Assembly (NCBI GenBank): GCA_913051545.1
Contig: CAJXCD010000006.1
Coordinates: 3,680 to 67,679, forward strand
DNA: 64,000 nt
From: an uncultured Chloroflexota bacterium
GTDB lineage: Bacteria; Chloroflexota; Dehalococcoidia; Lucifugimonadales; CAJXCD01
Direction: 5' to 3'
Below the pieces are notes generated by a model. It was given only the letters and a program-made list of their open reading frames with translations. It was not told the DNA's origin and made no database searches. Of the stretch, positions 5,064 to 57,149 are shown piece after piece; position 1 is the stretch's first letter; each line of letters begins with the position of its first letter. Both the position numbers and the translations under genes were made by a program.

Positions 5064-5264
5064 TGGTTACTCAAAAACAGGATACTGACATTGTCTATAA
5101 TCTCTCTATAAGTCATCCGTCGCACACTTTCCGGCTATGATGAATATAATTGGCACTATTTTCTTTTTCAATTAAATATGGGGAGGGTTATTTACTGTGT
5201 TCTTTTAAATAAGATGTATCGGTTACAGATGGCTTAGTGATTCGTGGTTCGTACCTTATATTAT

Positions 5265-28031: not shown

Positions 28032-28041
28032 ATAATCACCA

Positions 28042-28917
28042 TCAAATTTTACCAATATATTTTCTAGGGTGCATTACAGTAGCAATCGAACTGGTTATTG
28101 GTCGTAGCTTTGGTTTACGATAGCCTAGTCTCATAAGCCCCTTGCTAAGTATACGTCTGTTCAAACGTCTGTTGAGACCATTAGTAGATAATTTCCAAGT
28201 CGAATCATATATAGAGTATCCAGATGCTATTTTGCCAGAAAGTTCACGATTCCTTTTAATTTCAGGTCCATTCCATATCCAATCAGTGCCCCCTGGAACT
28301 GATTCCCACCCGTGGTTCTGGTGAAACACTTTTGATACTTCAGTGGCGTCTATAGTTGGTACTCCCTTCGACAGAGCACCGTATATTAGCCACTCATCCC
28401 AGCAACCTCTACCGATTGCGAATGGTGGTATAGATGGCCATGTACCTTTAGTGAAAGCAAAGTAATCCATACCTTGGCGCAAATCACTTTCTAAGGATTG
28501 TATTTTGTATATTTCTTTCCAGGTGGTCTGGTTACTGAAATCAAATTCAGTATCTATATTAATACCCCATGATAGGCCTACCATAAGGAAAGGTTGTTTT
28601 TTAATTGATTTCAAGGCAAGTATGAAATCTTTAGTGAGTATTATATCTGCGTTTACGTAAACAATAATGTTATTAGATGCTGAGATCTCAGCAGATTCAA
28701 ATAAAGAATTTACCAAAGGGGTTCCATGCTCATTACATAGTACGTCAGGAACATGCTTGACCCCAAAGTCTGCGGCACATTGAGATGTACCCTTATCATC
28801 ACCGATTAATATCACCTCTACATCTGGATCTAGATTTACCCAACTTGATATTGCATTTCGTTGGATAACTTCGAATTTGTTTACGAAAGGCCTAGGAGTA
28901 GTAAATATAGTGATCAT
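28042..28917 (-). CDS. putative GT-A-like glycosyltransferase of an uncharacterised family
   Basis: 'MITIFTTPRPF..IQRNAISSW ... VILIGDDKG ... YVNADIILTKDF'. I chose ATG 28917, which sits 1 nt after the upstream TGA, instead of the overlapping 29019 start. Confidence 0.45.
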   Translation of the reverse strand: MITIFTTPRPFVNKFEVIQRNAISSWVNLDPDVEVILIGDDKGTSQCAADFGVKHVPDVLCNEHGTPLVNSLFESAEISASNNIIVYVNADIILTKDFILALKSIKKQPFLMVGLSWGINIDTEFDFSNQTTWKEIYKIQSLESDLRQGMDYFAFTKGTWPSIPPFAIGRGCWDEWLIYGALSKGVPTIDATEVSKVFHQNHGWESVPGGTDWIWNGPEIKRNRELSGKIASGYSIYDSTWKLSTNGLNRRLNRRILSKGLMRLGYRKPKLRPITSSIATVMHPRKYIGKI

Positions 28918-28918
28918 C

Positions 28919-29629
28919 TCATAATTCTTGAGAAGGGTTTTGTGACGTTTGTAGTACGAAGCAACCAATACCATATAGGTCTCTAACGGGCTTACGAGAT
29001 AGAGCTGTTTCTTTATCAACCTTACCCCAAAGGTTGTGGTCGTCTTTGTTCCAATATTCTTCTTTCAATGTTTCCCACCCGGATAGTAATAATGGTAGTC
29101 TGTCTCGTCCGTAGACTCTATGTAGAGGTGGGAACACTGAATCTTGACCAATTGGGATGGTAAGAATCATTTTGCCAGTTGGTTTGATAAGTTTTAGCAG
29201 TAGTTTCATTACCTGGAAGTCACCTTCTTCATTTGAAGTATTAACACCGTAACGCCCTACTAAACCAACATGTTCAATCGAAGAACAGTTTATGATTAGG
29301 TCAAAGTTGTCCGGTGGTATGTTGTGGTCGAGGATGTCACCCTGTACAAATTCTATGTTGGAGTGTTTATAAAACCATTTTGGGGTTCTAAGATCGATGC
29401 CTGATATTTCATATCCACTCATGGCAGCGGATAGCCATAGATGACTATTCCCTGTTCCAAAATCTAGAGCTTTACCAGGGCCTGGTGGCATGTGCGCTGC
29501 GACCCAGGAATTTTCTATAGCTCTATCCCCAGCTAGAGTGACAGTAGGTACAGGTAATTTCCGTTCAATGTGCATTGCTAGGCCTGAAACCTTGAACAGA
29601 AATAGTCTGAAAAGTTTAACGATGAACAT
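28919..29629 (-). CDS. class I SAM-dependent methyltransferase
   Basis: 236 aa. Contains 'ALDFGTGNSHLWLSAAMSGYEISGIDL' and 'DLIINCSSIEHV'. Confidence 0.7.
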   Translation of the reverse strand: MFIVKLFRLFLFKVSGLAMHIERKLPVPTVTLAGDRAIENSWVAAHMPPGPGKALDFGTGNSHLWLSAAMSGYEISGIDLRTPKWFYKHSNIEFVQGDILDHNIPPDNFDLIINCSSIEHVGLVGRYGVNTSNEEGDFQVMKLLLKLIKPTGKMILTIPIGQDSVFPPLHRVYGRDRLPLLLSGWETLKEEYWNKDDHNLWGKVDKETALSRKPVRDLYGIGCFVLQTSQNPSQEL

Positions 29630-33531: not shown

Positions 33532-34401
33532 TTAAGTTCGGCGTAGCTTTTTCATGACAGATCTTTCACTATCATATACCCGTTTTACCCCGTCACCCAT
33601 AGCGGATTCTATGACACGGATATCTCGTACGAGTCGGTGTAGTCCCTGAGGTTCTATCGATGCTGACTGGTCAGAACCCCACATCGCCCTATCCAGAGTA
33701 ATGTGACGTTCTACGAAGCACGCCCCTAGTACAACGGCTGCAATAGTAGTTTGTAGCCCCGTCTCGTGTCCTGAATATCCAATAGGGCAGTCAAATTTGT
33801 TTTGGAGAGACTTAATGGTATTAAGGTTGAGTTCTTCTGCCGGACACGGATAGGTGCTTGTACAGTGACATATGACCAAATTATCTTTGTCTAGTAGTGA
33901 TACAGCATGATCTATTTGGTCCATAGTTGACATACCTGTGGAAATTATAATTGTCCTTTTCGTTGAATGTAATTTTGTTAAGAGGCTGTCATCAGTTAAG
34001 CATGCTGATGCTATTTTGTACCCAATTGGTTCAAATTGCTCCATGAAGTCTACGGATTCTTCATCCCAACAAGAACTGAACCAAGAGATATTATTTTCCT
34101 TACAATATTTGTCTATTTCATGGTACTCTTGTTTTCCGAATTCCACCTTGTGCCTGTAGTCAATGTAGGACATGATTCCCCAAGGTGTTTCACGTGGAAT
34201 GTCGCGTTGTTCGGGGGGGACACAAAGTTCAGGGGTCCTTTTTTGAAATTTTACAGCATCACAATTAGCTGAAACGGCAATGTCAATCAATTGCTTCGCT
34301 ACGTTGATATCGCCATTGTGGTTTATGCCTATTTCAGCAACTATATAGGTAGGAATACCTTCCCCTATAATTTCTTTCCCCCAATTGACTTTGTTGCTCA
34401 C
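33532..34401 (-). CDS. NeuB-family synthase (module 2), short form without SAF-like C-terminus
   Basis: 289 aa. Contains 'PTYIVAEIGINHNGDINVAKQLIDIAVSANCDAVKFQKR'. It ends about 60 aa earlier than the other two NeuB homologues. Confidence 0.85.
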   Translation of the reverse strand: MSNKVNWGKEIIGEGIPTYIVAEIGINHNGDINVAKQLIDIAVSANCDAVKFQKRTPELCVPPEQRDIPRETPWGIMSYIDYRHKVEFGKQEYHEIDKYCKENNISWFSSCWDEESVDFMEQFEPIGYKIASACLTDDSLLTKLHSTKRTIIISTGMSTMDQIDHAVSLLDKDNLVICHCTSTYPCPAEELNLNTIKSLQNKFDCPIGYSGHETGLQTTIAAVVLGACFVERHITLDRAMWGSDQSASIEPQGLHRLVRDIRVIESAMGDGVKRVYDSERSVMKKLRRT

Positions 34402-35594
34402 TATGATTGGACCTCCAGTTTCCGAATCACTAATTCAGAAATTTCTCGCACAGCACCACGTCCGCCATCTTTTGATAGCACAATATTCGCTTGAGATATT
34501 ACATCGGGATGTGCGTCATTGACTGCGACGCCACATCCCACTTCACGCATACATTCCAGATCGTTAATGTCATTCCCTACGTATACTAAATCTTTTAGAC
34601 ATAGTTCGTTTTCATTTGCCCATATTTTTAGTGCATCCAGTTTGTTATCAACTCCAGTAAAGCAAGGGATACCAAGTTTTTCACACCTAGTTTTTACGAC
34701 ACTATTAACTTCTGACGATATCACTATGATTGGGAGTCCCGTGGATCTCAATTTTGATATACCCATACCATCGCTTCGATCACAAATGACAGATTCACAA
34801 CCATTTTCTGATACCAGAACTAGGTTGTTTGTCAAAACACCATCGAAGTCAAAGACTAGTCCAGATACATGGTTTGGGAGCACTTGTGTACTTATTCGCA
34901 CTTTTTGTTCAACTATACGTGTCTCAGCAAGAATAATGTCACTAGGTTCATCTATTTCAAGACAACGTTCAGTAGGCATGACGTACATGGCAGTTGTTCC
35001 TACGAATCGATTTTTGGACTTCTGGAATTCATGTACTTTCATTACATACACAGCACCTGTTTCAAGGAATTGAGGGCTTAGATCTTGTCGAAGCAGTCGT
35101 TTATCTTTAGAGTGATTAATCCCGACGGAATTTCCACTTCGATTTTTACTCCACAAGAAATAGTGGAATGGTGTTACGGATAATGCCGAATCAGCATTAT
35201 CGTTGATAAGAGCGTCTACAGTCCCATCGATGTCTTCTGCTAAGGTGAGGGGTGACGTGCACTGAAGGAAAATCAATATTTCCGGGACGTATCCTTCTGT
35301 TTTTTTCAAGTGATCTAGAGTATGCAAGAGAGCCGATTCTGAAGAATCTTTATCGCCACTGATCTCTGAGGGGCGTTTAACTATATCGGCGCCATATAGA
35401 TTTGCCACTTCTGCGATTGTGTCGTCGTCGGTGGAGACAACAATTCGAGGTGCACATTTCGCTTTTTTAGCAGCCTGGATACTGTAAGCAAGAATAGGTT
35501 TCCCATCTAACGGTACAATATTCTTGCCTGGTATACTTTTTGATCCTCCCCTCGCCGGGATTACACAAAGTATTTCCATTAGATTCGTGTCCAT
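34401..35594 (-). CDS. bifunctional NeuA-type cytidylyltransferase / KdsC-type HAD phosphatase
   Basis: 397 aa. The N-terminus has 'VIPARGGSKSIPGKNIVPLDGKPILAYSI'. The C-terminus has 'LVFDFDGVLTNN ... VYVGNDINDLECM ... GVAVNDAHP' (HAD motifs I and IV, KdsC-like). Confidence 0.85.
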   Translation of the reverse strand: MDTNLMEILCVIPARGGSKSIPGKNIVPLDGKPILAYSIQAAKKAKCAPRIVVSTDDDTIAEVANLYGADIVKRPSEISGDKDSSESALLHTLDHLKKTEGYVPEILIFLQCTSPLTLAEDIDGTVDALINDNADSALSVTPFHYFLWSKNRSGNSVGINHSKDKRLLRQDLSPQFLETGAVYVMKVHEFQKSKNRFVGTTAMYVMPTERCLEIDEPSDIILAETRIVEQKVRISTQVLPNHVSGLVFDFDGVLTNNLVLVSENGCESVICDRSDGMGISKLRSTGLPIIVISSEVNSVVKTRCEKLGIPCFTGVDNKLDALKIWANENELCLKDLVYVGNDINDLECMREVGCGVAVNDAHPDVISQANIVLSKDGGRGAVREISELVIRKLEVQS

Positions 35595-35707: not shown

Positions 35708-37162
35708 TTATGTAACATTTGAAGGCGCTATAACGATTGACTCTGATTGGTATGGTGCTATAAGGTCCTTTTCCTTCACGGTTGACACTTCCACAGGATC
35801 CAACGCAGATGTTTCGTTTATTAGACTGGAAGAAATCAGTGGTTCAACTAGGTTTTCAACGTCCGATAAACTAAACTTCTTTTCTGTATATCGATCTGTA
35901 AATCCTATTGGCTTTACAGTTTTAAATTTTGAAAATGACAGTTGTGTAGGGAGATTCAAGCTTAACCGAAGATGTCTTGCAACTTTCGCGACATTTCTGC
36001 GAGTACCAATAAAATTTTCGTGTAGGCCATAAGCATGTTCTTTGCATAAAGACCTTTTAGGGGAAGTCTGGCTTTTACTTAACATCTCAATAATTTTATC
36101 TGAAACTCTTCGATGAGAATTCCCGTCAACTTTGTGGAACCACTTATCTATGACCGTTTTCTGTTTGTTTTTTACTTCTTGGGGGACATCGAACTCCCCA
36201 TTTATTATTGAGCGTAGAGTTTTCACTAAAATGTTCTCCGAATCACAAGGTACGCTCATAGCTTCAGCCGACTCTAATAATGGCCATGATTCAATCCACC
36301 TCGGGGACAGCGCAGGTACCCCACCTAGTGTTGCATCGATTGCGGTAGAGCAATTCCTTTGAATAACGGCTGAAGCGCGTAATATCCAGCCCGATATATC
36401 TCCATATTTTATTACGTGAAGATTGTCGTTTTGTATCATCCCGTCATATCCACGTATGTTTTCGAAGGGATGAGGGCGGTATACGAATGTGACTTCAGGA
36501 AAAGATGAGGCTAATGAGTTAGCAAGTTGAATTAGCTGTGACATTGTTGCCTTTTGGATGTTTTGACGCTCAATGTATTCATCCCGTTTAAATCCATAAG
36601 TTCTATCTGCTGCATTGATTATAGATTCCGGGGTCGAAAATTGCGGATTTGCTAGTCCAGCTTTACTGCTGATTAGAACCATCGGTTTTGGGTATTCGTT
36701 AGCGTAAAGTGAAAACTGTTTAGAAGCTCTATTCCAAGGATTTTTGTAAAGATCGAATCTTGGAGATCCTGTGACTGTTATTTGTTTCTTGCTATACCAG
36801 CATCGTTGCTCGGCGATTTCGGCTAGTTGGGGTCCCCAGGTAAAAAAACCTTTGACCTTATTACGAAGGTCTGTATCTTCAGGTAGTGTTAGTTCGTAGT
36901 GATCCCAGTTTGCCCAGATGCCTTCTGTGTCCATCACACCGATTTGTATGTTAGCCTCTACGAGTTGCTTAGCGAATTCTTGGATATTTTTACGCAGGTA
37001 GTTAAGTAATACGAAGTCTGGGGCGAGGTGCCAGACCTCACGCTCGCGCTTATTAAATGGGACTAGATAACAAGTGACTCCACTTTTGCAGAGTCTTAGG
37101 GCAAGTAGGACTGCACCAGGGAGATCTCTATATGGGTGATCTACTATTAGTGATACTCGCAT
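35708..37162 (-). CDS. uncharacterised GT-B-like 'surface carbohydrate biosynthesis' protein (paralogue C, more divergent)
   Basis: 484 aa. 'ASAVIQRNCSTAIDATLGGVPALSP' and 'VDGNSHRRVSDKI' echo paralogues A and B. There is a TAATG overlap with the LmbE-like gene. Confidence 0.4.
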   Translation of the reverse strand: MRVSLIVDHPYRDLPGAVLLALRLCKSGVTCYLVPFNKREREVWHLAPDFVLLNYLRKNIQEFAKQLVEANIQIGVMDTEGIWANWDHYELTLPEDTDLRNKVKGFFTWGPQLAEIAEQRCWYSKKQITVTGSPRFDLYKNPWNRASKQFSLYANEYPKPMVLISSKAGLANPQFSTPESIINAADRTYGFKRDEYIERQNIQKATMSQLIQLANSLASSFPEVTFVYRPHPFENIRGYDGMIQNDNLHVIKYGDISGWILRASAVIQRNCSTAIDATLGGVPALSPRWIESWPLLESAEAMSVPCDSENILVKTLRSIINGEFDVPQEVKNKQKTVIDKWFHKVDGNSHRRVSDKIIEMLSKSQTSPKRSLCKEHAYGLHENFIGTRRNVAKVARHLRLSLNLPTQLSFSKFKTVKPIGFTDRYTEKKFSLSDVENLVEPLISSSLINETSALDPVEVSTVKEKDLIAPYQSESIVIAPSNVT

Positions 37163-41349: not shown

Positions 41350-42417
41350 CTACTCGTTGTATCGCAGAAACATATCCCAAGATAAAGGTTCGTCATCTTC
41401 TATATCACGTATAGCAGTAGCACCTATTACTACATCCATTAGTTCTGTAGGTATTCCTGTGCCAGGTCTTTTCACTGCGATCTTTTCCTCGGTAACCAAC
41501 TCACCAGCATTTATTGGCGTAGCGGCGCATAGACTGCGTCTTCCAACGTCTTTCATTGCCTGCTCAGCAGGTGTACTAATTTTTCTTGGACTACCTAGTA
41601 CCATTTCTATGAAATCTCTTGCTTGTACGAGTGAATCGAGCTGGTCTGGAGTAAGCGAGAAGTGATGGTCAGGCCCTGGTAGGCTCTGGTCGACAGTGAT
41701 GTGTTTTTCTATCATGTTTGCCCCGATAGAAATAGCAACTTTGGACACGTCAATGCCAGGGGTGTGATCTGAGAACCCCACTGGACGTCCAAAAGCCGCC
41801 TTCATTGTCGGTATAGCTTTCAAGTTTACATCTTTAGGGTCAGTAGGGTAATTTGAGACACAATGGAGAAGAATGATTTGGTCGTTTCCTGTTTCCGTTA
41901 TTGTATTTATTGCTTTCTCAATATCACCCAGAGTCGACATTCCAGTGGACAGCACAATAGGCTTGCCTGTCTCACCCACACGCCTTATTAGTGGGAAATG
42001 GGTCATTTCGAACGATGCTATCTTGAAAACAGGAACATCAAATTCTTCCAGTATTCCTACATCTTCTATTCCAAATGGAGTCGACATAAAAGGGATCCCG
42101 ACTTCATGACAATATTCAACTACGGCTGGTTGAATTTCATACGGGAATTCTGTGGCTTGTATAAGGTCGAACATTGTTGCATCGTCGCCCACTTCCATAC
42201 GAGAACGGAAATGTTCCATCATAGGAGTTTTTTTTGAGTACATCTGCTCTGCTTCGTAGGATTGGAATTTCACAGAGTCTGCATTTGCATGAACTGCCAT
42301 GTCCACAAGTTGCTTCGCAAGATCCAATTGTTGGTTGTGATTACATCCCGCTTCAGCAATTATAAAACTAGGATTGCCGTCACCCACTACTCGCTGGCCT
42401 ATGCTAACGGTTTTCAT
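41350..42417 (-). CDS. NeuB-family synthase (module 3; PseI-like by context), with SAF-like C-terminus
   Basis: 355 aa. Contains 'PSFIIAEAGCNHNQQLDLAKQLVDMAVHANADSVKFQSY'. Confidence 0.9.
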   Translation of the reverse strand: MKTVSIGQRVVGDGNPSFIIAEAGCNHNQQLDLAKQLVDMAVHANADSVKFQSYEAEQMYSKKTPMMEHFRSRMEVGDDATMFDLIQATEFPYEIQPAVVEYCHEVGIPFMSTPFGIEDVGILEEFDVPVFKIASFEMTHFPLIRRVGETGKPIVLSTGMSTLGDIEKAINTITETGNDQIILLHCVSNYPTDPKDVNLKAIPTMKAAFGRPVGFSDHTPGIDVSKVAISIGANMIEKHITVDQSLPGPDHHFSLTPDQLDSLVQARDFIEMVLGSPRKISTPAEQAMKDVGRRSLCAATPINAGELVTEEKIAVKRPGTGIPTELMDVVIGATAIRDIEDDEPLSWDMFLRYNE

Positions 42418-42437
42418 TATATCCTCCTTGAAATTTG

Positions 42438-43175
42438 TTAGGATTGTAAATCATCCCAAGCCTGAATTAGTTCTCCCAGAGAGAACATGTCATCGTTAGT
42501 AGACAATTTTCCATACAACTTTTCCATCGTATGGAAGGACTCAGGAGTGTCTACAGAGATGTTGATATCCGGTCTATCTAATCCACTTGGTGCTTTGATA
42601 GTGCCTACTCTATATTTATCCCTATTATCATAAGCATAAAAATATATGTGCTCACGATACTTGTGGCGTGAGTCTGCACCAAGGGTGTCAGAATCAAGTC
42701 GAAGTAGACATTCTCCTGTAGAAACCTCAGCACCAGCCCCAAAAGGGTATGAGTTGTTTAGAAATGGAGAGCAGACGTCTAGCCTATCACTCTCGAGTTT
42801 TTTGATCGTGTGGCGGATAACTTCAGGGTCTATTGCCATGTTGTCAGCATTCACTCTGACTACGATGTCAGCCGAGTCATACTGCAACACTTCTATAAAA
42901 CGAGAAAGCACATCATCTTCACTGCCACGGTGAAATGCCCACGAATACTTTTCTGATAGGTCAGATAGCACGTCATTCTCCGTGTTCACAGATGTAGCGA
43001 GGTAAACTTCGTCTAATGTGTTGCATGCCTGTATTCTTCTCATAACCTGTACTATTGAAGGATATCCGTTTAATGGCAACAGGACTTTCCCTGGGAGTCT
43101 TGTAGAACCCATCCTAGCTTGCACTATTGCAATTACTCTAGCCAAAAACCTTTTTCCCAGTTCGTTGAAATTCAC
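42438..43175 (-). CDS. SpsF/PseF-type cytidylyltransferase (CTP_transf_3-like)
   Basis: 245 aa. Contains 'VIAIVQARMGSTRLPGKVLLPL'. The listed start is GTG; a downstream TTG is also possible. Confidence 0.8.
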   Translation of the reverse strand: MNFNELGKRFLARVIAIVQARMGSTRLPGKVLLPLNGYPSIVQVMRRIQACNTLDEVYLATSVNTENDVLSDLSEKYSWAFHRGSEDDVLSRFIEVLQYDSADIVVRVNADNMAIDPEVIRHTIKKLESDRLDVCSPFLNNSYPFGAGAEVSTGECLLRLDSDTLGADSRHKYREHIYFYAYDNRDKYRVGTIKAPSGLDRPDINISVDTPESFHTMEKLYGKLSTNDDMFSLGELIQAWDDLQS

Positions 43176-47768: not shown

Positions 47769-48545
47769 TCACTTACTCACACTAAATATTGACGTGCAAA
47801 CCATTTGACCGCTTTCGGTAAGTAGTTCTTCTTGCCAGAAAATATGTCCGACATTATCTCCAAAATAATGAAACATTTCCTTCAGTCCACCACTCAATTG
47901 GGTGCCGACCTGAGGTTTTGTGGTAGGGGAATGAACGAACGCTACAGCAATAAGACCATTAGGTTTTGTAACTCTAACCGATTCAGAACATGCAAGCCTG
48001 ATATCGTTACTGTACCTAAGCACGTAGGAACTATACAGTACATCGAACTGATTGTCTTGGAAGTTCATCTCGTGCATATCCATTATGTCTATAAGCGGAC
48101 TGTAGCTGAATAGGTCTATAGCACTGATCTTACGGAGGTCGAATCCGTAAAGACTCATCAATAAAACTTCGGCCTCATTTCTCGGACCTATACAGAGAAC
48201 CTTGCTATTATTCTTGTCTATACCTCCGATGGTCCCCAGAACACTCAATAATCTTTCAGTTCGGTTACGGCTAATTTTCCATACCAAACTTTCGTTGTAA
48301 GGAAGGACATTTTCAGTGACGTGGTCATCTCCTACTAGAGGCACCGTATCGAGGTACCTACGAGGAATTCTTAGTATTTTGTGTTTAAATCTCCTAAGGT
48401 TAAACCATATTCCAAATGTTAAGGGACGTCTCATGAAATAATTCATATAGGATGGTGTGATCGGCGAGGGTGGCGCAATATAACGGCGGATAATATTTCT
48501 TAACCGGAAACGTGTACCGGCTATTTTTCTGAGGTAGTTAGTCAT
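47769..48545 (-). CDS. class I SAM-dependent methyltransferase-like protein
   Basis: 258 aa. Contains 'VLCIGPRNEAEVLLM', 'FDVLYSSYVLRY' and 'VTKPNGLIAV'. Confidence 0.6.
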   Translation of the reverse strand: MTNYLRKIAGTRFRLRNIIRRYIAPPSPITPSYMNYFMRRPLTFGIWFNLRRFKHKILRIPRRYLDTVPLVGDDHVTENVLPYNESLVWKISRNRTERLLSVLGTIGGIDKNNSKVLCIGPRNEAEVLLMSLYGFDLRKISAIDLFSYSPLIDIMDMHEMNFQDNQFDVLYSSYVLRYSNDIRLACSESVRVTKPNGLIAVAFVHSPTTKPQVGTQLSGGLKEMFHYFGDNVGHIFWQEELLTESGQMVCTSIFSVSK

Positions 48546-48660: not shown

Positions 48661-49590
48661 TTAGGTGCGACGCCCAATTTTCTGCAAGGCTAGGAATTTA
48701 GCATGACGTAAGAAATCTTTAGGCGTTTGTTCGCCAATTGTAAATGGACGGAATCCGTATCCAGCGGAAACATATGGGAAGACCGGTCTGGTATGATCCC
48801 CACATATTTTGTGCAGCAACGGGTTATAGAAAAAATGGTATCCTATGCAACCGGTATCATCAGACTCTACTATATATGATCCTCTGCCACCATAATTTTC
48901 TAATAATTGTAGTAATTCTTGCCCAAAAACGTCATGTAGGTTTACCCATGTGCTCCCGAAAGGCGGAATGGTGGGTCCTGTAGATTCAAGTTTGTCTCCA
49001 ATGGTGTTAAATACTGATATTCGCAGATTCGCAGATACATCATATGCGGGATCAGCACTTCCGTTGATGAAGTAAGCTACAGATTGCCAGTATTTATCCA
49101 TTAGTAGCGCAGGAGAAAACTGCCTGAATTTAGATTTTCTGCCCTTCCGCTCCGCAAAATTCCAGTCTTTTACAGCTCCAGTTGCAACTATCTCTTGCAG
49201 GGAACCTGAAGAATCCAAGATTCTTACACACCACTCTTGGTGTATATTGGGGATTTTAACTCCTTGGTCTGTAGGTTTCATATGTACAGCAACGGTTCCT
49301 CGCATAGGCGGAACGTCTTTGAATTTCTCACCTAGATTTATTGTTACCGGACGATCACCGTGTGCCTTTTCAGATAGAATTATTTCTCTGACTGTTTTGC
49401 CTTTCTGGTCAAATATCCAGCACGTCAGATCGTAATCTACCCAATCGGGCCAGTCTTTTATAGATGAAGATATTATTGTTTGAAATTCTTGATCAGCCAG
49501 ATAAGGTCCGTACCAAACGGTTTGGTTAGAAAGATAATCCAGGGAGTATAAACTTCCAGTATTAGTATTTTTTGGATCCATATTTTGCAT
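48661..49590 (-). CDS. hypothetical protein (P1), internally duplicated beta-rich module
   Basis: 309 aa with clean coding character and no motif I recognise. It resembles the adjacent CDS at 49605-50393. Confidence 0.65.
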   Translation of the reverse strand: MQNMDPKNTNTGSLYSLDYLSNQTVWYGPYLADQEFQTIISSSIKDWPDWVDYDLTCWIFDQKGKTVREIILSEKAHGDRPVTINLGEKFKDVPPMRGTVAVHMKPTDQGVKIPNIHQEWCVRILDSSGSLQEIVATGAVKDWNFAERKGRKSKFRQFSPALLMDKYWQSVAYFINGSADPAYDVSANLRISVFNTIGDKLESTGPTIPPFGSTWVNLHDVFGQELLQLLENYGGRGSYIVESDDTGCIGYHFFYNPLLHKICGDHTRPVFPYVSAGYGFRPFTIGEQTPKDFLRHAKFLALQKIGRRT

Positions 49591-49604
49591 TATCGGTTTA
49601 ATAT

Positions 49605-50393
49605 TCAGAAATGGTTGACTGATAGTTCGTCTTTGTTGTTTGGTGACACTACTAAAGTTATAGGTTTACGTACTATGTTGTATCCATCGAGTATTATTTC
49701 ACCTGATTTTCCGTCCATAAACTCTTCTAATTGCGGAAAATGTTCTTCAAAAGAAAACAAATACACACCTCTAGCTTTTACATTGCCAGACCATTTAGAT
49801 ATCGTTTCCCCAGCATGGTTTCTTATGCTTACCTTGGTTCGTCCGTGAGATAGAAATGGTATCTTAGGACCGTAATAGTTGTTAAGCAGAATTAGGTATT
49901 TGGATTTGGAGTGGTTATCCGAAAACACTTGCTCAGATCGAATACTTTCTCTCTTAGGAGCATATACAGGACTCCAGGAATTGTGTACGAACGACCTAGC
50001 GTTTGAACCTGAAATTATTTCCATGACGAATTCAGTTGAAACGAACATATTGATGAGAGTCTTGGGTAATACTTCTGGTATTAGCCTACACAAAACAGTG
50101 CCGTATGTATCTGGCTGATTATTATTCTCGATCAACTTCGTTTTGATGTCCAAATGCAGGGAACCGTAGGGTTTCAGCAATTCTCGGTGTGTAAACAGCT
50201 TCTGACCATTGAAATCGTAGAAAGTGATTTCTGCAATCGATTCAGAGTTTTGCGTGTCAGTTCCAAAAAAAGAAGTATTGTAGTAATTAAATATGTTTAT
50301 TGAGGTATTCATACCCTCAGAGGTGATACCAAAACCCATGTTTGGCTTGAAATATTGCGCATGTAATGGCATTTGGTGGGTATTTTTATTCAT
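49605..50393 (-). CDS. hypothetical protein (P2), paralogue-like neighbour of P1
   Basis: I chose ATG 50393 rather than the listed 50477, which overlaps the upstream gene. The same two-module pattern as P1 is present. Confidence 0.6.
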   Translation of the reverse strand: MNKNTHQMPLHAQYFKPNMGFGITSEGMNTSINIFNYYNTSFFGTDTQNSESIAEITFYDFNGQKLFTHRELLKPYGSLHLDIKTKLIENNNQPDTYGTVLCRLIPEVLPKTLINMFVSTEFVMEIISGSNARSFVHNSWSPVYAPKRESIRSEQVFSDNHSKSKYLILLNNYYGPKIPFLSHGRTKVSIRNHAGETISKWSGNVKARGVYLFSFEEHFPQLEEFMDGKSGEIILDGYNIVRKPITLVVSPNNKDELSVNHF

Positions 50394-50436: not shown

Positions 50437-51396
50437 TTAATCAGGTATCGTAGCCCACACACCGAATCTTTTAGCAAACAAGAAAGGATGTTTACGAGTC
50501 AATTTTTCTAAAAGATTTCCTGTCCAATTTAGTTTGCTTCCATAAACTATAATGTGTTGATCTTTTCGAGTTAACGGTAGATATTCGGAGATGCCCTGCC
50601 TGATATCCAATGCAAACTCACTCCTCACTTCGAGATCGCTTTCAGATAGCATGGTCTTAATGTCAATCGGGCGATAGAACCAATGCCGGAATTGGTAAGA
50701 CAGTGACTTACGTCCAAGACACCGACGGATCAAGTTACTGTTTGGAGCATAAGTAATTGGCTGTTTAATAAAGGTGAAAAATCCTGTTACAGTCATGATT
50801 ATTCTGTTAAGTCGTAGTTTTAGATAAGAATTCTCGAAAGAATTCAAGGCATGAATAAGCATAGACCCGGGGCCCTTAAGGCTTTTATATACGGCTTTGT
50901 ATGCTTTCCTTGGAGTGTTGTAATCTTCATGTTCGTAAACTACACCTATTAGTATACAGATATCATAACGTTGGTGTCGGTCATTTGGTATGTCAAGAAG
51001 ATCAGCTGTAAATGCACGGCTGGGATCCATCCCCATATTTCGTAGTTTTGGTTTCAGTATTTCGTTAACACAAATTTCGCTTTGGTCTGACATTTCCACA
51101 TCGTACCCTTGTTCGAGCAATTGGAAGCTATATGCACCTACCCCACAACCATATTCGACTATTTTTATTTCTTCAGCTTTTTTCCCAGTAGTTTTAAGAT
51201 AATTAGTAATACCGTCTGAAATAAATTTCGGAATTTCAGACCCTAATTCTACCTCTACTGCAGCCTTGTTACGTTCTTCCGTGCGATTAACATATATAGA
51301 ATCGTACTTTTCTAAATTGCTTTTAGTGTGACCAATAGTACTGTGAGAGATGTACTTACGACCTCGTTTTTTCCCAATGTAGGTTCCTATCTTCAT
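50437..51396 (-). CDS. class I SAM-dependent methyltransferase with C-terminal extension
   Basis: Contains 'IVEYGCGVGAYSFQLLEQGYDVEMSD' and 'YDICILIGVVYEH'. ATG 51396 forms an ATGA overlap with the wzt stop, so the listed 51468 start was rejected. Confidence 0.8.
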   Translation of the reverse strand: MKIGTYIGKKRGRKYISHSTIGHTKSNLEKYDSIYVNRTEERNKAAVEVELGSEIPKFISDGITNYLKTTGKKAEEIKIVEYGCGVGAYSFQLLEQGYDVEMSDQSEICVNEILKPKLRNMGMDPSRAFTADLLDIPNDRHQRYDICILIGVVYEHEDYNTPRKAYKAVYKSLKGPGSMLIHALNSFENSYLKLRLNRIIMTVTGFFTFIKQPITYAPNSNLIRRCLGRKSLSYQFRHWFYRPIDIKTMLSESDLEVRSEFALDIRQGISEYLPLTRKDQHIIVYGSKLNWTGNLLEKLTRKHPFLFAKRFGVWATIPD

Positions 51397-52751
51397 GACA
51401 ATGACCCTTTCGTAGGTATGGTAGGTGTTATATTTACAGCTACTTTCTTGCCATCTGGCGTATCCCATGTATATGGGGACATAACTGTATTTGTTATGCC
51501 AATGAACCTATCGGCTGCTTCGCCTTTCAGTCCCGCACTTTTAGCAGAGCCTCGTATCGAAAAATTTGCTACATCAATCCAGCGTACCAGTTGGTTCATA
51601 GGGTTGCTGGCCCGGGCGCCTATACGTACTACGTACTGTTGCTGAGGAAGCAGGGGAACGCGCTCAAAGGTACATCGAATCTTGCCTTTGCCATCTAGTT
51701 TTTCAATGGTAGTACCGTCCAGTAACATATTCGCATTTAGTAGACCTCCACCTCTTCCAAGTATAGCAACCCAAAAATATGGACGATTGATTGGAGTAGA
51801 AGCATTGTAATGGATCTCAATAGCTATAGAATCCCACGTTTTAAACTCACTTTTTTCATTTCCTTTGTAGTCTGTGACTACCACTTTCTCTATGATGAGT
51901 TCTCCATCTACACTTTTTGCAACTGGATACTTGGTTTTTTGTATTGAAGAGCTAGAGAGATATTTATCAATTACTTCATCAGGTTCCCCGTCGAGAATTA
52001 TTTTACCTTCATTAATCCACATTGCTCTCGAACAAAGGGATGATATTGCAGACATATTATGGCTAACAAAAATAATTGTTCTACCCATATTCCCAACTTC
52101 CTGCATTTTCCCAATACATTTCTGCTGGAAAGAAGCATCACCAACGGCTAAGACCTCGTCTACAAGGAGTATCTCGGGTTCGAGGTGTGCAGCTACCGAG
52201 AAAGCCAATCTAACTGCCATACCACTCGAATAGCGTTTCACAGGGGTGTCAATAAATTTATTCACTTCAGCAAAGTCCACGATCTCATCGAATTTGTTGT
52301 CGAGATCCGATTTCTTCATGCCGAGTAAAGTGCCATTTAAGTAAACGTTGTCTCTCCCGCTTAATTCTGGATGGAACCCAGTCCCAACTTCGAGCAGGCT
52401 GCTAACACGTCCGGTTAAATAAGCTTTTCCGCCAGTTGGTTCTGTTATCTGGGTTAGTATTTTCAAGAGTGTTGTTTTACCAGCCCCATTGGGTCCTACC
52501 AAACCCAGTATTTCACCTTGTCTAAGATCGAACGAGACCTCATCTAGTGCCCATAAGATGTCATCAGTACGGCCGCCTTGGTTTCCAAACTTGGCAAGAC
52601 TCCTTAATCGACGGAAATTCTTGATCGGCCTTGTTACTAAACTAGCTGCGGCGCCTACTAACGTATCAGGAGACTCCTCTTTGATACCAATCCTGTAACG
52701 TTTCGACAGATTTTCCACACTGATAGCTATATTATTCGTAGGCTTAGTCAT
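51393..52751 (-). CDS. wzt: ABC transporter ATP-binding protein, Wzt/TagH type, with C-terminal ~200-aa beta-rich extension (Wzt_C-like)
   Basis: 452 aa. 'GLVGPNGAGKTTLL' is Walker A, 'YSSGMAVRLAF' the signature and 'ILLVDEVLAVGD' Walker B. The extra C-terminal domain begins after about aa 250. Confidence 0.9.
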   Translation of the reverse strand: MTKPTNNIAISVENLSKRYRIGIKEESPDTLVGAAASLVTRPIKNFRRLRSLAKFGNQGGRTDDILWALDEVSFDLRQGEILGLVGPNGAGKTTLLKILTQITEPTGGKAYLTGRVSSLLEVGTGFHPELSGRDNVYLNGTLLGMKKSDLDNKFDEIVDFAEVNKFIDTPVKRYSSGMAVRLAFSVAAHLEPEILLVDEVLAVGDASFQQKCIGKMQEVGNMGRTIIFVSHNMSAISSLCSRAMWINEGKIILDGEPDEVIDKYLSSSSIQKTKYPVAKSVDGELIIEKVVVTDYKGNEKSEFKTWDSIAIEIHYNASTPINRPYFWVAILGRGGGLLNANMLLDGTTIEKLDGKGKIRCTFERVPLLPQQQYVVRIGARASNPMNQLVRWIDVANFSIRGSAKSAGLKGEAADRFIGITNTVMSPYTWDTPDGKKVAVNITPTIPTKGSLS

Positions 52752-52754
52752 TAT

Positions 52755-53615
52755 TTAGGCTACGTCTGCAAATATACGTTCTGTCCGGCGAAAGTATACT
52801 AGCCCACTAATAAACAGTATTGTTGCTACCAAGATCGACATGCCAAGGAGGTCCCACGGCATAGGGTTAGTAGTTAGCAGTGCCGACCGGAAGGACTCTA
52901 TTACTCCAACCATAGGGTTTATTGCGTATACTAATCTGTATTCATCAGGAACAAGGCTAGCCGGGTATACCACAGGAGACGTGAACATAAGTAGTTGTAC
53001 AGCAAAGGATATCCCGTACTTAATGTCACGGTACTGTATGGCTAGGGCAGTAAGCCACATCCCTGCACCTGTAGCACTTAATATCATTATGATGGTAACT
53101 ACCGGCAAAATTAACGCCCAAATTGACGGTATGGTTTTGAACCAAACCATTAATGCCAGCAGTAGTAATAATGCGATCGCAAAATCTATTAGCCTTGCAA
53201 GAACCGCGGAAAAAGGCATCATAAGTCTTGGGAAATACACTTTGCTTAACATACGGGCATTGGATATAAGACTTTCCGTGGCTCCAGTCATAGATGTGGC
53301 AAAATATGTCCAAGGCACTAGTGCTGCAAAGCTAAATATGGGGTAGGGAACTCCATCAGAATCTATTTTGGCCAGCTCTCCAAATACGAACGTGAATACT
53401 ATCATGAAAAACACTGGCTGGATCACGGCCCACCCTATACCTAGTGCTGATTGAGCATACCGGACTTTTATATCTCTCCACACAAGGAAATAGAGAAGGT
53501 CTCGGTAATCCCATAATTCCATCCAGTCAATTGACAACCAGCTTGATGCTGGTTCAATTACCCTGACTTTTTTCGGGGACGCTCTAAGTTTTGCGTGACT
53601 ATTCATGGTGGGCAT
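52755..53615 (-). CDS. wzm: ABC-2 type polysaccharide export permease
   Basis: 286 aa with about 6 TM helices. It lies immediately upstream of wzt (3-nt gap). Confidence 0.88.
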   Translation of the reverse strand: MPTMNSHAKLRASPKKVRVIEPASSWLSIDWMELWDYRDLLYFLVWRDIKVRYAQSALGIGWAVIQPVFFMIVFTFVFGELAKIDSDGVPYPIFSFAALVPWTYFATSMTGATESLISNARMLSKVYFPRLMMPFSAVLARLIDFAIALLLLLALMVWFKTIPSIWALILPVVTIIMILSATGAGMWLTALAIQYRDIKYGISFAVQLLMFTSPVVYPASLVPDEYRLVYAINPMVGVIESFRSALLTTNPMPWDLLGMSILVATILFISGLVYFRRTERIFADVA

Positions 53616-55610: not shown

Positions 55611-57149
55611 TCACCTGCGGAATACTTTTGAGAATACTCGTTTAACTAGGGACTTATTGTTTTTAAGGTCATCATCACTACCGTGAGATCTATACTCGTA
55701 ATACTTGTAGTATGGGTAACCATATCCATAACCGTATCCGTAGCTAAACCGTCGCCTCTTAAGTTTGTTGATTACTATTCCTAAGATAGGCGATTTTGAA
55801 TTTCTTATCATCCCCAACGCTGCTTTTAATGCAGCTGATTTTGTGCGTTGACCGTCTACTACTAGCATAACTCCAGTTACTTGTGCAGCCATGACAGCTG
55901 CATCCGCGACAGGGAGAAGGGGAGGGCTGTCAAATAAAATAAAATCGTATAGGCCAGTGACTTTTTCAATCAACTGATAGAATCTCTTTGAGGCTAATAA
56001 TTCACCTGGGTTTGGAGGAATCGGCCCGCTTGGGATTATGTCCACTCCATCCGATTCTTTCGCGGTTCGTATCACTTCGGAGGTGTCAATATTACGGTCT
56101 GCTAAATAGTTGCTGAGACCAGTCGTTTTTGTCATGCCCTCGAAGACACGGCTTAACGAAGGACGTCGTAGATCTCCATCTATAACTAGTACTTTTTTGC
56201 CCGTCTGAGCTATCGCTATCGCAAGATTCGATACCACGGTAGTTTTACCTTCGGATGGTCCAGGTGAGCTGACAACGTATACATGTTTGTCATATGATGC
56301 TGTGGAGAATTCAAAATTTGCACGGAATTGTCTGAAGGCTTCTGCATATGTTGAAGAGGGGGCAGATTGTATAATAGGACCCTCAGATGATTCACCTTCT
56401 TCATCTGTCCAGTTGAATACTGAACCTAATCCAGCGACTCCAAACTGTTCCTGCAATTTGTCGGGAGATCTTACGGTGTCTTCGAGTCCGCTTATTAAGA
56501 AGATGGCCGCGATTGCAATCATTAAACCAATAATTCCACCGAGTACAGTATTTTGTGTAGTTTTAGGTACAACGGGGGTACTAGGTACAGATACTGGTTC
56601 CAATATGGACAAACTATCAACAGCACTTAGTTGTGCCGCAGCGACATCGCCAGCAGTTATCCCGTATACTGCCGCGGCTGATTGGATTCTGGCTATCTCG
56701 GATAACCGTTTTTCCATTGCGTATGTTATGAATTCTTCTGCAATATTTTGGGCGGTAGATGCTGCTACAACTGGGTTGCCATGACGAACTCTGACAATTA
56801 TTACCGGTGGCTGTGTATCAATGATTGCTGTAACTGACGCACCAGATAACTCTATGCCGGACAAAAATGGCTCAGCCATAAGAAGTCTACTGTAAGTAGA
56901 AGCAAGTTCTTCGCTTTGCTGAAAATTACTTGCCCCAAGTCCAAATCCGCTACTTCGGTATTGTACAAGTATAGTGGTAGAGGCTTGATAGCTCGGCGTA
57001 ACGTTTTGGCTTAGAAAGTATGCGCCTAGCCCACCTACCAATGGTAGCGATATGATTATCCACCAATACGTTAGAAACAGACCAACATATCGCCTGATAT
57101 CTAGGGGTTCTTCTTCTACTATTCCATTTTCTAATGTGTTTTCTTGCAT
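55611..57149 (-). CDS. Wzc-like polysaccharide co-polymerase / BY-type tyrosine autokinase fusion
   Basis: 512 aa with two TM segments flanking a Wzz-like domain. 'SSPGPSEGKTTVV' is Walker A, 'VLVIDGDLRRPS' Walker A' and 'FILFDSPPLL' Walker B. The Tyr cluster 'YGYGYGYGYPYYKYYEY' lies at 55692-55742. Confidence 0.88.
   Translation of the reverse strand: MQENTLENGIVEEEPLDIRRYVGLFLTYWWIIISLPLVGGLGAYFLSQNVTPSYQASTTILVQYRSSGFGLGASNFQQSEELASTYSRLLMAEPFLSGIELSGASVTAIIDTQPPVIIVRVRHGNPVVAASTAQNIAEEFITYAMEKRLSEIARIQSAAAVYGITAGDVAAAQLSAVDSLSILEPVSVPSTPVVPKTTQNTVLGGIIGLMIAIAAIFLISGLEDTVRSPDKLQEQFGVAGLGSVFNWTDEEGESSEGPIIQSAPSSTYAEAFRQFRANFEFSTASYDKHVYVVSSPGPSEGKTTVVSNLAIAIAQTGKKVLVIDGDLRRPSLSRVFEGMTKTTGLSNYLADRNIDTSEVIRTAKESDGVDIIPSGPIPPNPGELLASKRFYQLIEKVTGLYDFILFDSPPLLPVADAAVMAAQVTGVMLVVDGQRTKSAALKAALGMIRNSKSPILGIVINKLKRRRFSYGYGYGYGYPYYKYYEYRSHGSDDDLKNNKSLVKRVFSKVFRR

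What the first reader, a model, noticed from the sequence alone, without database searches (positions are those of the whole stretch)
48661..50393. Tandem pair of unknown, internally duplicated proteins between methyltransferases, next to wzt
P1 (48661-49590) and P2 (49605-50393) match nothing I recognise, but they resemble each other. Each seems to contain two copies of a beta-rich module. Examples are 'CWIFDQKGKTVREIILSEKAHGDRPVTINLGEKF' and 'ISVFNTIGDKLESTGPTIPPFGSTWVNLHDVF' in P1, versus 'ITFYDFNGQKLFTHRELLKPYGSLHLDIKTKL' and 'VSIRNHAGETISKWSGNVKARGVYLFSFEEHF' in P2.

They sit between two methyltransferases, directly downstream of the wzm-wzt-MTase block. They could be carbohydrate-binding or chain-length/termination factors, or a new enzyme family.
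Basis: partly seen in the sequence, partly recalled or inferred. Interest (0 to 1): 0.65.

Follow-up and report, generated by a model that had tools for sequence, protein, structure and literature searches.

The report
Paired sugar-binding-like partners of a methyltransferase
Two adjacent unannotated genes in a marine bacterium's cell-surface sugar locus encode distantly related proteins, each built from two copies of a beta-sandwich fold predicted to bind sugars. They always occur together with, or fused to, one particular clade of methyltransferase in gene clusters for sialic-acid-like sugars, so they are most likely its substrate-binding partners.

Summary
P1 (48661-49590, minus strand, 309 aa) and P2 (49605-50372/50393, minus strand, 255-262 aa) match no Pfam, NCBIfam or PDB sequence.

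- **P1/P2 similarity.** Pairwise similarity is not significant. Family profiles show homology: whole proteins E 5.6e-7, C-terminal domains E 4.3e-15, reversed controls all E >= 0.13.
- **Internal duplication.** The two halves of each protein also match each other (E 5e-5 to 5.5e-9).
- **Structure.** AlphaFold2 models are confident (pLDDT 88-89). Each protein is two eight-stranded beta-sandwiches with the same strand order. The best single-domain matches are ASRT (2II8) and TM1070 (1NC7), a superfamily predicted to bind sugars. There is no global structural match.

The conserved unit is not "pair next to wzt" but P2-P1-Methyltransf_11. It recurs in at least 12 lineages, nearly always in nonulosonic-acid clusters. 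It also occurs as P1::methyltransferase and P2::P1 fusions. All P1-linked methyltransferases fall in one clade (support 100/99).

Best reading (about 0.45): P2 and P1 form a four-domain sugar-binding partner of the methyltransferase. Here that enzyme may make the chain-end cap read by Wzt.

A catalytic role is not excluded. Supporting it are an invariant histidine at the end of strand 8 in three of the four domains, and a flavin reductase neighbour in three loci.

This is a new family of moderate interest.

The parts
48661..49590 (-). P1, 309 aa. A tandem of two ASRT-like beta-sandwich domains plus a basic C-terminal helix.
   Evidence: ORF. AlphaFold2 pLDDT 88.4, pTM 0.82. Foldseek match to 2II8 (ASRT), probability 1.0, target TM-score 0.67. 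58 relatives among 1.84 billion representatives.
49156..49533 (-). P1 domain 1 (residues 20-145). Eight strands. W26 lies at the start of strand 1. N144 in the following linker is nearly invariant.
48781..49143 (-). P1 domain 2 (residues 150-270). Eight strands. N176 at the end of strand 2 (codon 49063-49065) is invariant in the core family (A4) and nearly invariant across the 45-member set (A3). H266 at the end of strand 8, in the DHTRP motif, is invariant (codon 48793-48795).
48676..48723 (-). P1 C-terminal amphipathic, basic helix (residues 290-305). In the P1::methyltransferase fusions this region runs on into the linker.
   Evidence: inference for the docking or linker role
49605..50393 (-). 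P2, 255 aa from the ATG at 50372 (262 aa from 50393). A tandem of two ASRT-like beta-sandwich domains. The invariant His is the penultimate residue.
   Evidence: AlphaFold2 pLDDT 89.0, pTM 0.88. Foldseek match to 1NC7 (TM1070), probability 1.0, target TM-score 0.56.
49971..50351 (-). P2 domain 1 (residues 8-134 of the 255-aa form). N29 lies at the end of strand 2 (codon 50286-50288). Invariant H130 lies at the end of strand 8 (codon 49983-49985).
49608..49964 (-). P2 domain 2 (residues 137-255). Invariant N164 (codon 49881-49883) and invariant H254 (codon 49611-49613).
47769..48545 (-). Methyltransf_11-type SAM methyltransferase (258 aa). It is the constant partner of P2-P1 and is 30-33% identical to the C-terminal part of the natural P1::methyltransferase fusion proteins.
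50437..51396 (-). Second class-I methyltransferase (Methyltransf_23/25, 319 aa), overlapping the wzt stop codon. It is specific to this locus and is not part of the conserved triad.
51393..52751 (-). wzt: an ABC ATPase with a C-terminal Wzt_C carbohydrate-binding domain (residues 282-403).
52755..53615 (-). wzm: the ABC-2 permease.
41350..43175 (-). NeuB-family nonulosonic-acid synthase and CMP-sugar cytidylyltransferase of the adjacent pathway module. They are the likely source of the sugar acted on.
35708..37162 (-). TIGR04396 / BFO_1060-like predicted nonulosonic-acid glycosyltransferase (484 aa). Homologues lie near P2-P1 in two other loci.

Best explanation
P2 and P1 are cytoplasmic paralogues. 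Each is a dyad of ASRT-like eight-stranded beta-sandwich domains.

Proposed mechanism:
1. They are made from coupled genes and assemble 1:1 into a four-domain body. This would be a hetero-'tetrad', like the tetramer of solo ASRT domains.
2. That body binds the nonulosonic-acid substrate. The substrate could be the CMP-activated sugar or the sugar at the non-reducing end of the lipid-linked chain.
3. Binding would use pockets built around the conserved Asn (end of strand 2) and His (end of strand 8).
4. Through P1's C-terminal helix the body is tethered to the downstream Methyltransf_11 enzyme, which transfers a methyl group from SAM.
5. In this window the triad sits directly behind wzm-wzt, and Wzt carries a cap-reading C-terminal domain. 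The methylated residue is therefore plausibly the chain-end mark that licenses export.

**Shown here:** homology of P1 and P2, the internal duplication, the fold, the conserved gene triad, the natural fusions, and restriction to one methyltransferase clade.

**Inferred:** heteromer formation, sugar binding, identity of the substrate, and the cap role.
For: - **Fold.** Both AlphaFold2 models are confident. The best single-domain matches are ASRT and TM1070, each with probability 1.0.
- **ASRAH hallmarks** (PMC2739507). Each domain has eight strands. An Asn at the end of strand 2 is present in three of the window's four domains: N176, N164 and N29. The domains occur as dyads, and as tetrads in the P2::P1 fusions. 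That paper argues for sugar binding in this superfamily and reports one family fused to a glycosyltransferase.
- **Gene order.** P2-P1-methyltransferase order is conserved. Junctions are short or overlapping in several loci.
- **Fusions.** P1::methyltransferase fusions: P0034, P0052, P0061, P0069, L034, L037. P2::P1 fusions: P0047 and others, L027.
- **Methyltransferase tree.** All 11 P1-linked methyltransferases fall in one clade with support 100/99. None of the 35 scorable rows in the sister clade is P1-linked. 0 of 500 label shuffles are as clustered.
- **Context.** Nonulosonic-acid genes occur in nearly every locus. NeuB lies immediately upstream of P2 in L009, L013 and L030.
- **Location.** Neither protein has an N-terminal signal peptide (sequence).
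- **Wzt.** It carries a Wzt_C domain.
Against: - No sequence-level link to ASRT exists: no PF07100 hit and no PDB sequence hit. The superfamily assignment rests on predicted structure only.
- No model of the complex could be run, so the heteromer and the pockets are inferred.
- An absolutely invariant His is more typical of catalysis or metal binding than of a lectin-like site.
- Six methyltransferases of the same clade have no P1 or P2 within their fetched locus (up to 8 kb on each side; for L025 about 2 kb upstream), so the enzyme can apparently work without them.
- wzm-wzt is adjacent in only two lineages, so the cap role cannot be general.
- An FNR-type flavoprotein is tightly linked in three loci, which a pure binding role does not explain.
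Confidence: 0.45

Rival explanations
1. P2-P1 is itself a new beta-sandwich enzyme. The invariant histidines (P2 H130 and H254, P1 H266) would form a catalytic or metal site at the domain or subunit interface. It would modify the nonulosonic acid, for example by hydroxylation, epimerisation or hydrolysis, in a step coupled to methylation by the partner enzyme. One possibility is hydroxylation followed by O-methylation.
For: - An invariant His lies at the end of strand 8 in three of the four domains, across sequences only 15-20% identical.
- Further conserved polar residues in P1: D265, R268, Y251, H252, S178, Y183.
- An FNR-type flavin reductase gene lies directly upstream of P2 in L034 and L037 and beside the methyltransferase in L030.
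- A PhyH-like dioxygenase follows the triad in L001.
- Enzyme-enzyme fusions (P1::methyltransferase) are common in pathways.
Against: - The reductase is confined to three related loci out of about 12 lineages.
- No known cofactor or metal motif is present, and no structural match to a beta-sandwich enzyme active site was found.
- Three of the four universally invariant positions (N, G, G) are structural in this fold.
- The ASRT superfamily has no known enzymes.
Confidence: 0.25
2. The triad is specifically a chain-terminating, export-licensing machine of the ABC-transporter pathway. P2-P1 would bind the growing glycan and position the methyltransferase to cap the non-reducing end. The cap would then be recognised by the Wzt C-terminal domain. 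This is functionally like WbdD with Wzt in E. coli O8/O9a, with P2-P1 possibly also setting chain length.
For: - The triad lies immediately downstream of wzm-wzt in the window and in L001.
- Wzt has a Wzt_C domain.
- Methyl caps are the known signal in O8-type systems (established knowledge).
- The basic, amphipathic segments at the P1 C-terminus and the methyltransferase N-terminus could give membrane association (sequence).
Against: - In most lineages with the triad, no wzm-wzt lies within the fetched flanks. The triad there abuts NeuB or CMP-transferase genes, or sits in loci with a MurJ-type flippase or a Wzy_C-domain gene.
- In the window a different methyltransferase is the one translationally coupled to wzt.
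- No coiled-coil ruler or similar feature is present.
- P1/P2 are not homologous to Wzt_C.
Confidence: 0.15
3. P2-P1 is an intracellular sugar sensor or regulator, as proposed for solo ASRT proteins. It would modulate the methyltransferase, or the pathway, according to metabolite level rather than presenting substrate.
For: The regulatory-sensor proposal for intracellular ASRAH domains (PMC2739507). Some methyltransferases of the clade lack P1/P2, which fits a dispensable modulator.
Against: Covalent fusion to the enzyme and strict 1:1 gene pairing look more like subunits than regulators. No DNA-binding or signalling domain is attached.
Confidence: 0.1

Closest known systems
ASRT / ASRAH beta-sandwich superfamily (Anabaena sensory rhodopsin transducer, PDB 2II8; Thermotoga TM1070, PDB 1NC7; Pfam PF07100; De Souza, Iyer & Aravind 2009, PMC2739507)
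   Same: - Eight-stranded beta-sandwich; the best single-domain structural match for both proteins.
- A conserved Asn at the end of strand 2.
- Occurrence as dyads and tetrads.
- Carbohydrate-metabolism context.
- A precedent for fusion to a glycan-building enzyme.
- Cytoplasmic versions exist.
   Different: - No detectable sequence similarity.
- The strand-2 ligand signature (SHEshChhN) is absent.
- A family-specific invariant His at the end of strand 8.
- An obligatory heterologous pair, P2 plus P1.
- A fixed methyltransferase partner in nonulosonic-acid clusters.
- An inserted short helix between strands 5 and 6.
WbdD chain terminator with the Wzt C-terminal carbohydrate-binding module (E. 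coli O8/O9a ABC-transporter O-antigen pathway)
   Same: A SAM methyltransferase encoded next to wzm-wzt, with a Wzt that carries a cap-binding C-terminal domain. The action is cytoplasmic and probably membrane-proximal.
   Different: - WbdD uses a coiled-coil and has no beta-sandwich partners.
- The triad here is mostly found without wzt.
- P1/P2 are unrelated to Wzt_C.
- The capping function is untested.
Legionella pneumophila serogroup 1 ORF 8 and Campylobacter jejuni PtmH (Cj1325): methyltransferases that N-methylate the 5-acetimidoyl group of legionaminic acid (as summarised in PMC3766260)
   Same: A methyltransferase gene beside a NeuB-family gene. In Legionella it lies in a wzm-wzt locus for a nonulosonic-acid polymer, and it acts on a nonulosonic acid.
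   Different: The paragraphs of PMC3766260 read here, which describe ORF 8 as a putative methyltransferase next to a NeuB-family ORF 9, mention no accessory beta-sandwich proteins.
Generic tandem Ig-like or beta-barrel pairs (transglutaminase C-terminal barrels, GH2 Ig-like domains, arrestins, pilins)
   Same: Two consecutive beta-sandwich domains. These are the top whole-chain Foldseek hits by E-value.
   Different: TM-scores are only 0.11-0.23 with rmsd above 12 Å. The resemblance is generic, not a specific relationship.

Membership tests
ASRT/ASRAH superfamily | Eight-stranded beta-sandwix of two four-strand repeats, with structural similarity to TM1070 or ASRT | tested here: met
   DSSP on confident models shows eight strands per domain. 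Foldseek: 2II8 probability 1.0, target TM-score 0.67, 109 columns; 1NC7 probability 1.0, target TM-score 0.56, 137 columns. This rests on predicted, not solved, structures. Which of the two domains matched is not reported by the tool.
ASRT/ASRAH superfamily | Nearly invariant Asn at the end of strand 2 | tested here: met
   P1-D2 N176 follows strand 169-175. P2-D2 N164 ends strand 156-164. P2-D1 N29 follows strand 22-28. The window's P1-D1 has Ser there, but distant P1-like members have 'YQN'.
ASRT/ASRAH superfamily | Conserved Trp at the start of strand 1 | tested here: inconclusive
   P1-D1 has W26 in the conserved PWFGP at the start of strand 26-32. The N-terminal halves of the P2::P1 fusion proteins have 'CW'. 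The other domains lack a conserved Trp.
ASRT/ASRAH superfamily | Sequence-profile match to the family (Pfam PF07100 or PDB members) | tested here: not met
   No ASRT hit at E <= 10 for P1 or P2 or at E <= 1 for 45 members. The domain profile A8 does not find 1NC7 or 2II8.
ASRT/ASRAH superfamily | Occurs solo as a tetramer, or as dyads or tetrads in one chain | tested here: met
   P1 and P2 are dyads. The P2::P1 fusions of about 540-556 aa are tetrads.
ASRT/ASRAH superfamily | Binds a sugar or small molecule in a cleft lined by strand 2 | not testable with these tools
No ligand docking or multimer prediction was possible.
WbdD-type chain terminator system | The methyltransferase or kinase modifies the non-reducing terminus and the Wzt C-terminal domain binds that cap | not testable with these tools
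   Only context is available: Wzt_C is present and methyltransferases are adjacent.
WbdD-type chain terminator system | Constant genomic linkage to wzm-wzt | tested here: not met
   wzm-wzt is adjacent only in the window and L001, out of about 12 lineages with the triad.
Wzt_C carbohydrate-binding module (PF14524) | Sequence or profile similarity to Wzt_C | tested here: not met
   No Pfam hit. hhalign of the domain profile against the window's own Wzt C-terminus gives probability 0.3%.
FlgD Ig-like domain (PF13860) | Pfam match above the gathering score | tested here: not met
   12.9 bits against a cut-off of 27, E 0.11, covering a 29-residue hairpin only.

The most novel reading that the evidence does not exclude
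P2 and P1 assemble into a pseudo-tetramer in which the three invariant strand-8 histidines (P2 H130, P2 H254, P1 H266) converge to form a metal or catalytic centre. This would make them a previously unrecognised beta-sandwich enzyme class. In some lineages it would be fed by an FNR-type reductase. It would tailor nonulosonic acids, for example by hydroxylation, and hand the product to its tethered methyltransferase.
Probability: 0.15. Interest if true: 0.75.

Novelty: new variant of a known kind. Interest (0 to 1): 0.5.

Why it matters
Nonulosonic acids (sialic, legionaminic and pseudaminic acids) decorate bacterial surfaces, and how they are modified shapes recognition by phages, predators and immune systems. 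The enzymes that tailor them are poorly known.

This work defines an undescribed protein family with no Pfam model. It has 58 representatives at E <= 0.001 among 1.84 billion cluster representatives. It is tied by gene order, gene fusion and co-phylogeny to one clade of methyltransferases in such clusters.

If P2-P1 are substrate-presenting subunits, they would give the first functional partner and ligand class for an ASRT-like domain outside the rhodopsin story, and would show how a generic methyltransferase acquires sugar specificity. If they are catalytic, they would be a new enzyme fold for sugar tailoring.

Either way the triad is a compact, expressible system of three small soluble proteins that can be tested directly.

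Tried and rejected
- **Pairwise and shallow comparisons.** Pairwise BLASTP and two-sequence profile comparison of P1 with P2 were not significant. Deeper families were needed.
- **Family libraries.** Pfam and NCBIfam on P1/P2 and on 45 relatives gave nothing consistent.
- **PDB by sequence.** Whole-protein and single-domain profiles gave only noise, for example OspA hairpins at E about 0.2.
- **Whole-chain Foldseek.** Only generic tandem Ig-like hits with TM-scores <= 0.23. Arrestin, transglutaminase and GH2 relationships were rejected.
- **Homology to the Wzt C-terminal domain.** Rejected.
- **Genome-collection scan.** The narrower one found only two short contigs of one Acidimicrobiaceae MAG, so little taxonomy was gained.
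- **Transcription.** The run search (kind 'any') returned only runs typed, by the tool's guess, as DNA metagenomes, so nothing can be said about transcription.
- **Tools unavailable.** Model coordinates are not exposed, so clustering of the conserved residues could not be measured.
- **Flavin reductase as a general partner.** Rejected as general: it occurs in only three loci.
Full report
**What is there**

The finding lies on the minus strand of a gene array of about 57 kb that is almost entirely glycan biosynthesis.
- P1 is 48661-49590 (309 aa).
Public gene calls use either that ATG or the one at 50372 (255 aa), and the closest homologue starts at the latter.

The local gene order, read along the minus strand, is:
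- wzm (52755-53615)
- wzt with a Wzt_C domain (51393-52751)
- a Methyltransf_23/25 enzyme overlapping the wzt stop (50437-51396)
- P2, then P1
- a Methyltransf_11 enzyme (47769-48545)
- a DegT aminotransferase, an SDR, a radical-SAM enzyme, WbqC, a CMP-sugar cytidylyltransferase, NeuB, a sulfotransferase and a formyltransferase

The same contig occurs in several seawater metagenomes.

**Checking the observation**

Neither protein hits Pfam, NCBIfam or any PDB sequence above noise.

P1 against P2 by BLASTP is not significant (E 0.72). Nor is a comparison of two-sequence profiles (probability 0.5%).

Relatives are rare:
- The word-indexed search of 5.8 billion clusters gave one relative each.
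- A profile search gave five more for P2.
- The exhaustive HMMER search of 1.84 billion representatives gave 58 for P1.

With these families the relationship becomes clear:

| Comparison | Probability | E-value | Columns |
|---|---|---|---|
| P1 family vs P2 family | 92% | 5.6e-7 | 168 |
| C-terminal domains (P1-D2 vs P2-D2) | 98.4% | 4.3e-15 | 112 |
| N-terminal domains (P1-D1 vs P2-D1) | 93.7% | 1.8e-7 | 78 |
| P1-D2 vs P2-D1 | 95.9% | 5.5e-9 | 67 |
| P2-D1 vs P2-D2 | 89.7% | 1.9e-6 | 66 |
| P1-D1 vs P1-D2 | 67.4% | 5e-5 | 41 |

All twelve reversed-template controls have E >= 0.13. A joint alignment of the C-terminal domains of P1-type, P2-type and fused proteins is collinear with four invariant positions: N, G, G, H.

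**Structure**

AlphaFold2 with these alignments gives confident models: P1 has pLDDT 88.4 and pTM 0.82; P2 has pLDDT 89.0 and pTM 0.88.

Each protein is two eight-stranded beta-sandwiches with the same order of elements: five strands, a short helix, then three strands. P1 has an extra basic C-terminal helix.

The internal duplication is therefore real at both the sequence-profile and fold level.

Foldseek against the PDB finds no whole-chain relative. TM-scores are <= 0.23, and the list is generic tandem Ig-like pairs: transglutaminase barrels, GH2 domains, arrestins and pilins.

The best single-domain matches, both with probability 1.0, are:
- the Anabaena sensory rhodopsin transducer for P1 (2II8, target TM-score 0.67)
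- its Thermotoga homologue TM1070 for P2 (1NC7, target TM-score 0.56, 17% identity)

**Comparison with the ASRT superfamily**

De Souza, Iyer and Aravind (PMC2739507) defined the ASRAH superfamily by these features:
- an eight-stranded sandwich of two four-strand repeats
- a Trp at the start of strand 1
- a nearly invariant Asn at the end of strand 2
- a ligand cleft lined by strand 2
- occurrence as solo tetramers, dyads or tetrads
- contexts and fusions, including one to a glycosyltransferase, that argue for sugar binding

How the proteins here compare:
- The Asn is present at the end of strand 2 in three of the four domains: P1 N176, P2 N164, P2 N29.
- P1 has the Trp (W26).
- The proteins are dyads, and their fusions are tetrads.
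- No sequence profile links them to PF07100, and the strand-2 ligand signature is absent.

They also carry their own mark: a His at the end of strand 8 in three of the four domains (P2 H130, P2 H254, P1 H266). Each is invariant in every aligned sequence of its family.

I therefore treat them as a new, structure-level branch of that superfamily, not as members of the Pfam family.

**Surroundings and relatives**

The pair is conserved, but its constant companion is the downstream Methyltransf_11 gene rather than wzt.
- A second marine lineage has wzm-wzt-P2-P1-methyltransferase without the intervening second methyltransferase.
- Another has NeuB-P2-P1-methyltransferase.
- An Acidimicrobiaceae-type lineage has P2-P1 beside a TIGR04396 glycosyltransferase and a divergent methyltransferase.

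The exhaustive search also recovered two kinds of fusion protein:
- P1-like domain + linker + methyltransferase, about 550 aa. The window's methyltransferase is 30-33% identical to that C-terminal part, including the region N-terminal to the catalytic core.
- P2-like + P1-like double proteins, about 540-556 aa. The P2 profile matches the N-terminal half with probability 95% and the P1 profile matches the C-terminal half.

I anchored a metagenome scan on the methyltransferase (80 loci) and scanned all loci with P1 and P2 profiles. This gave:
- the triad as three genes: L029, L030, L032/33
- P2 plus a P1::methyltransferase fusion: L034, L037
- a P2::P1 fusion with the methyltransferase two genes downstream: L027

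Every P1 with enough upstream sequence has P2 directly upstream. Several junctions overlap.

A maximum-likelihood tree of 76 methyltransferases puts all 11 P1-linked ones in one clade (support 100/99). That clade holds 23 rows: 11 with P1, 6 without and 6 unscorable. The sister clade of 53 rows has none. 0 of 500 label shuffles are as clustered.

Nonulosonic-acid genes (NeuB, CMP-transferase, PseC- or PseB-like enzymes, TIGR04396/BFO_1060-type transferases) are present in nearly all loci with the triad. wzm-wzt is present in only two lineages.

**How it most likely works**

P2 and P1 lack signal peptides, are encoded by coupled genes and exist as a natural fusion. P1 and the methyltransferase also exist as a natural fusion.

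The simplest reading is a three-part cytoplasmic complex. Four ASRT-like sandwiches (P2+P1) would bind the nonulosonic-acid substrate and present it to the SAM methyltransferase.

I cannot tell whether the substrate is the CMP-sugar or the chain terminus. Methylation of the CMP-sugar has a precedent: a methyltransferase next to NeuB N-methylates legionaminic acid in Legionella serogroup 1 and Campylobacter (PMC3766260).

In this window the triad sits immediately behind a Wzt with a cap-reading domain, which makes a terminal methyl cap plausible. However, the methyltransferase that overlaps wzt is a different one. The general distribution also argues that capping is at most a local use.

I put about 0.45 on the binding-partner model, with 0.15 more on the specific cap or terminator version.

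**The main rival**

An invariant His repeated at the same structural position in three of four domains, plus D265, R268, Y251 and H252 in P1, looks more like a catalytic or metal site than a lectin site.

In three related loci an FNR-type flavoprotein gene sits directly against the unit. In L001 a PhyH-like dioxygenase follows it.

A new beta-sandwich enzyme, for instance one that creates the group to be methylated, is therefore not excluded (about 0.25).

Against it:
- the reductase is confined to one sub-lineage
- three of the four universal invariants are structural for this fold
- no beta-sandwich enzyme appeared among the structural matches

**Novelty and verdict**

The family has no Pfam model, and neither the family libraries nor the few papers I read describe it. 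I did not search the literature for the family itself.

Its fold ties it to a known, little-studied superfamily predicted to bind sugars. Its obligatory pairing and its gene-fusion and co-phylogeny link to one methyltransferase clade in nonulosonic-acid clusters are new.

I rate it a new variant of a known kind, of moderate interest (0.5). It is a clean, testable three-protein system, but its function is inferred.

If so, the exported polymer is not an O-antigen but a wall or S-layer glycan. I did not test this.

Noticed in passing
L034:5567-6271, L037:5462-6148, L030:8527-9210 (minus strand): An FNR-type flavoprotein of about 230 aa (FAD_binding_6 + NAD_binding_1). It lies directly upstream of the P2-like gene in two loci and convergent with the methyltransferase in a third. 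It is absent from all other loci scanned.
   Followed up: partly
window 35708-37162 (minus strand); L001:5428-6876; L012:764-2209: A 484-aa protein without a Pfam domain is TIGR04396 'surface carbohydrate biosynthesis protein' / BFO_1060-like, a predicted nonulosonic-acid transferase. It co-occurs with P2-P1 in three lineages at 36-37% identity.
   Followed up: partly
window 26976-28055, 33532-34401, 41350-42417 (all minus strand): Three NeuB-family synthase genes and three CMP-type cytidylyltransferase genes (23049-23774, 34401-35594, 42438-43175) lie in one locus. This implies up to three different nonulosonic or ulosonic acids.
   Followed up: no
window 47769-48545 (minus strand) and relatives: The partner methyltransferase clade has an unusual motif I ('CIGPRNE[AG]E' in place of the usual GxGxG). 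It also has a conserved basic, hydrophobic N-terminal region ('QSRF..I.F..R') that forms the linker in the P1::methyltransferase fusions. Pfam models match only its C-terminal half.
   Followed up: partly
window 15453-16706 and 16777-18552 (minus strand); 28042-29019 (minus strand): Three further ORFs in the locus (417, 591 and 325 aa) have no Pfam match at the thresholds used (E <= 1e-5 for the first two, E <= 1e-3 for the third).
   Followed up: no
window 10462-12042 (minus strand) together with 52755-53615 and 51393-52751: The same locus carries both a Wzy_C-type (O-antigen ligase or polymerase-like) membrane protein and a Wzm/Wzt ABC exporter, plus a Wzc-like kinase at 55611-57149. These are parts of normally alternative export routes.
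   Followed up: no
L027:2457-4109, 4153-5298, 5234-5989: In the locus with the P2::P1 fusion, a 381-aa hexapeptide-repeat acyltransferase is inserted between the fusion gene and the methyltransferase.
   Followed up: no
L001:16008-20921: The second marine locus ends in a cluster of transposase fragments and a group II intron reverse transcriptase (RVT_N, RVT_1, GIIM, HNH) just downstream of the glycan genes.
   Followed up: no
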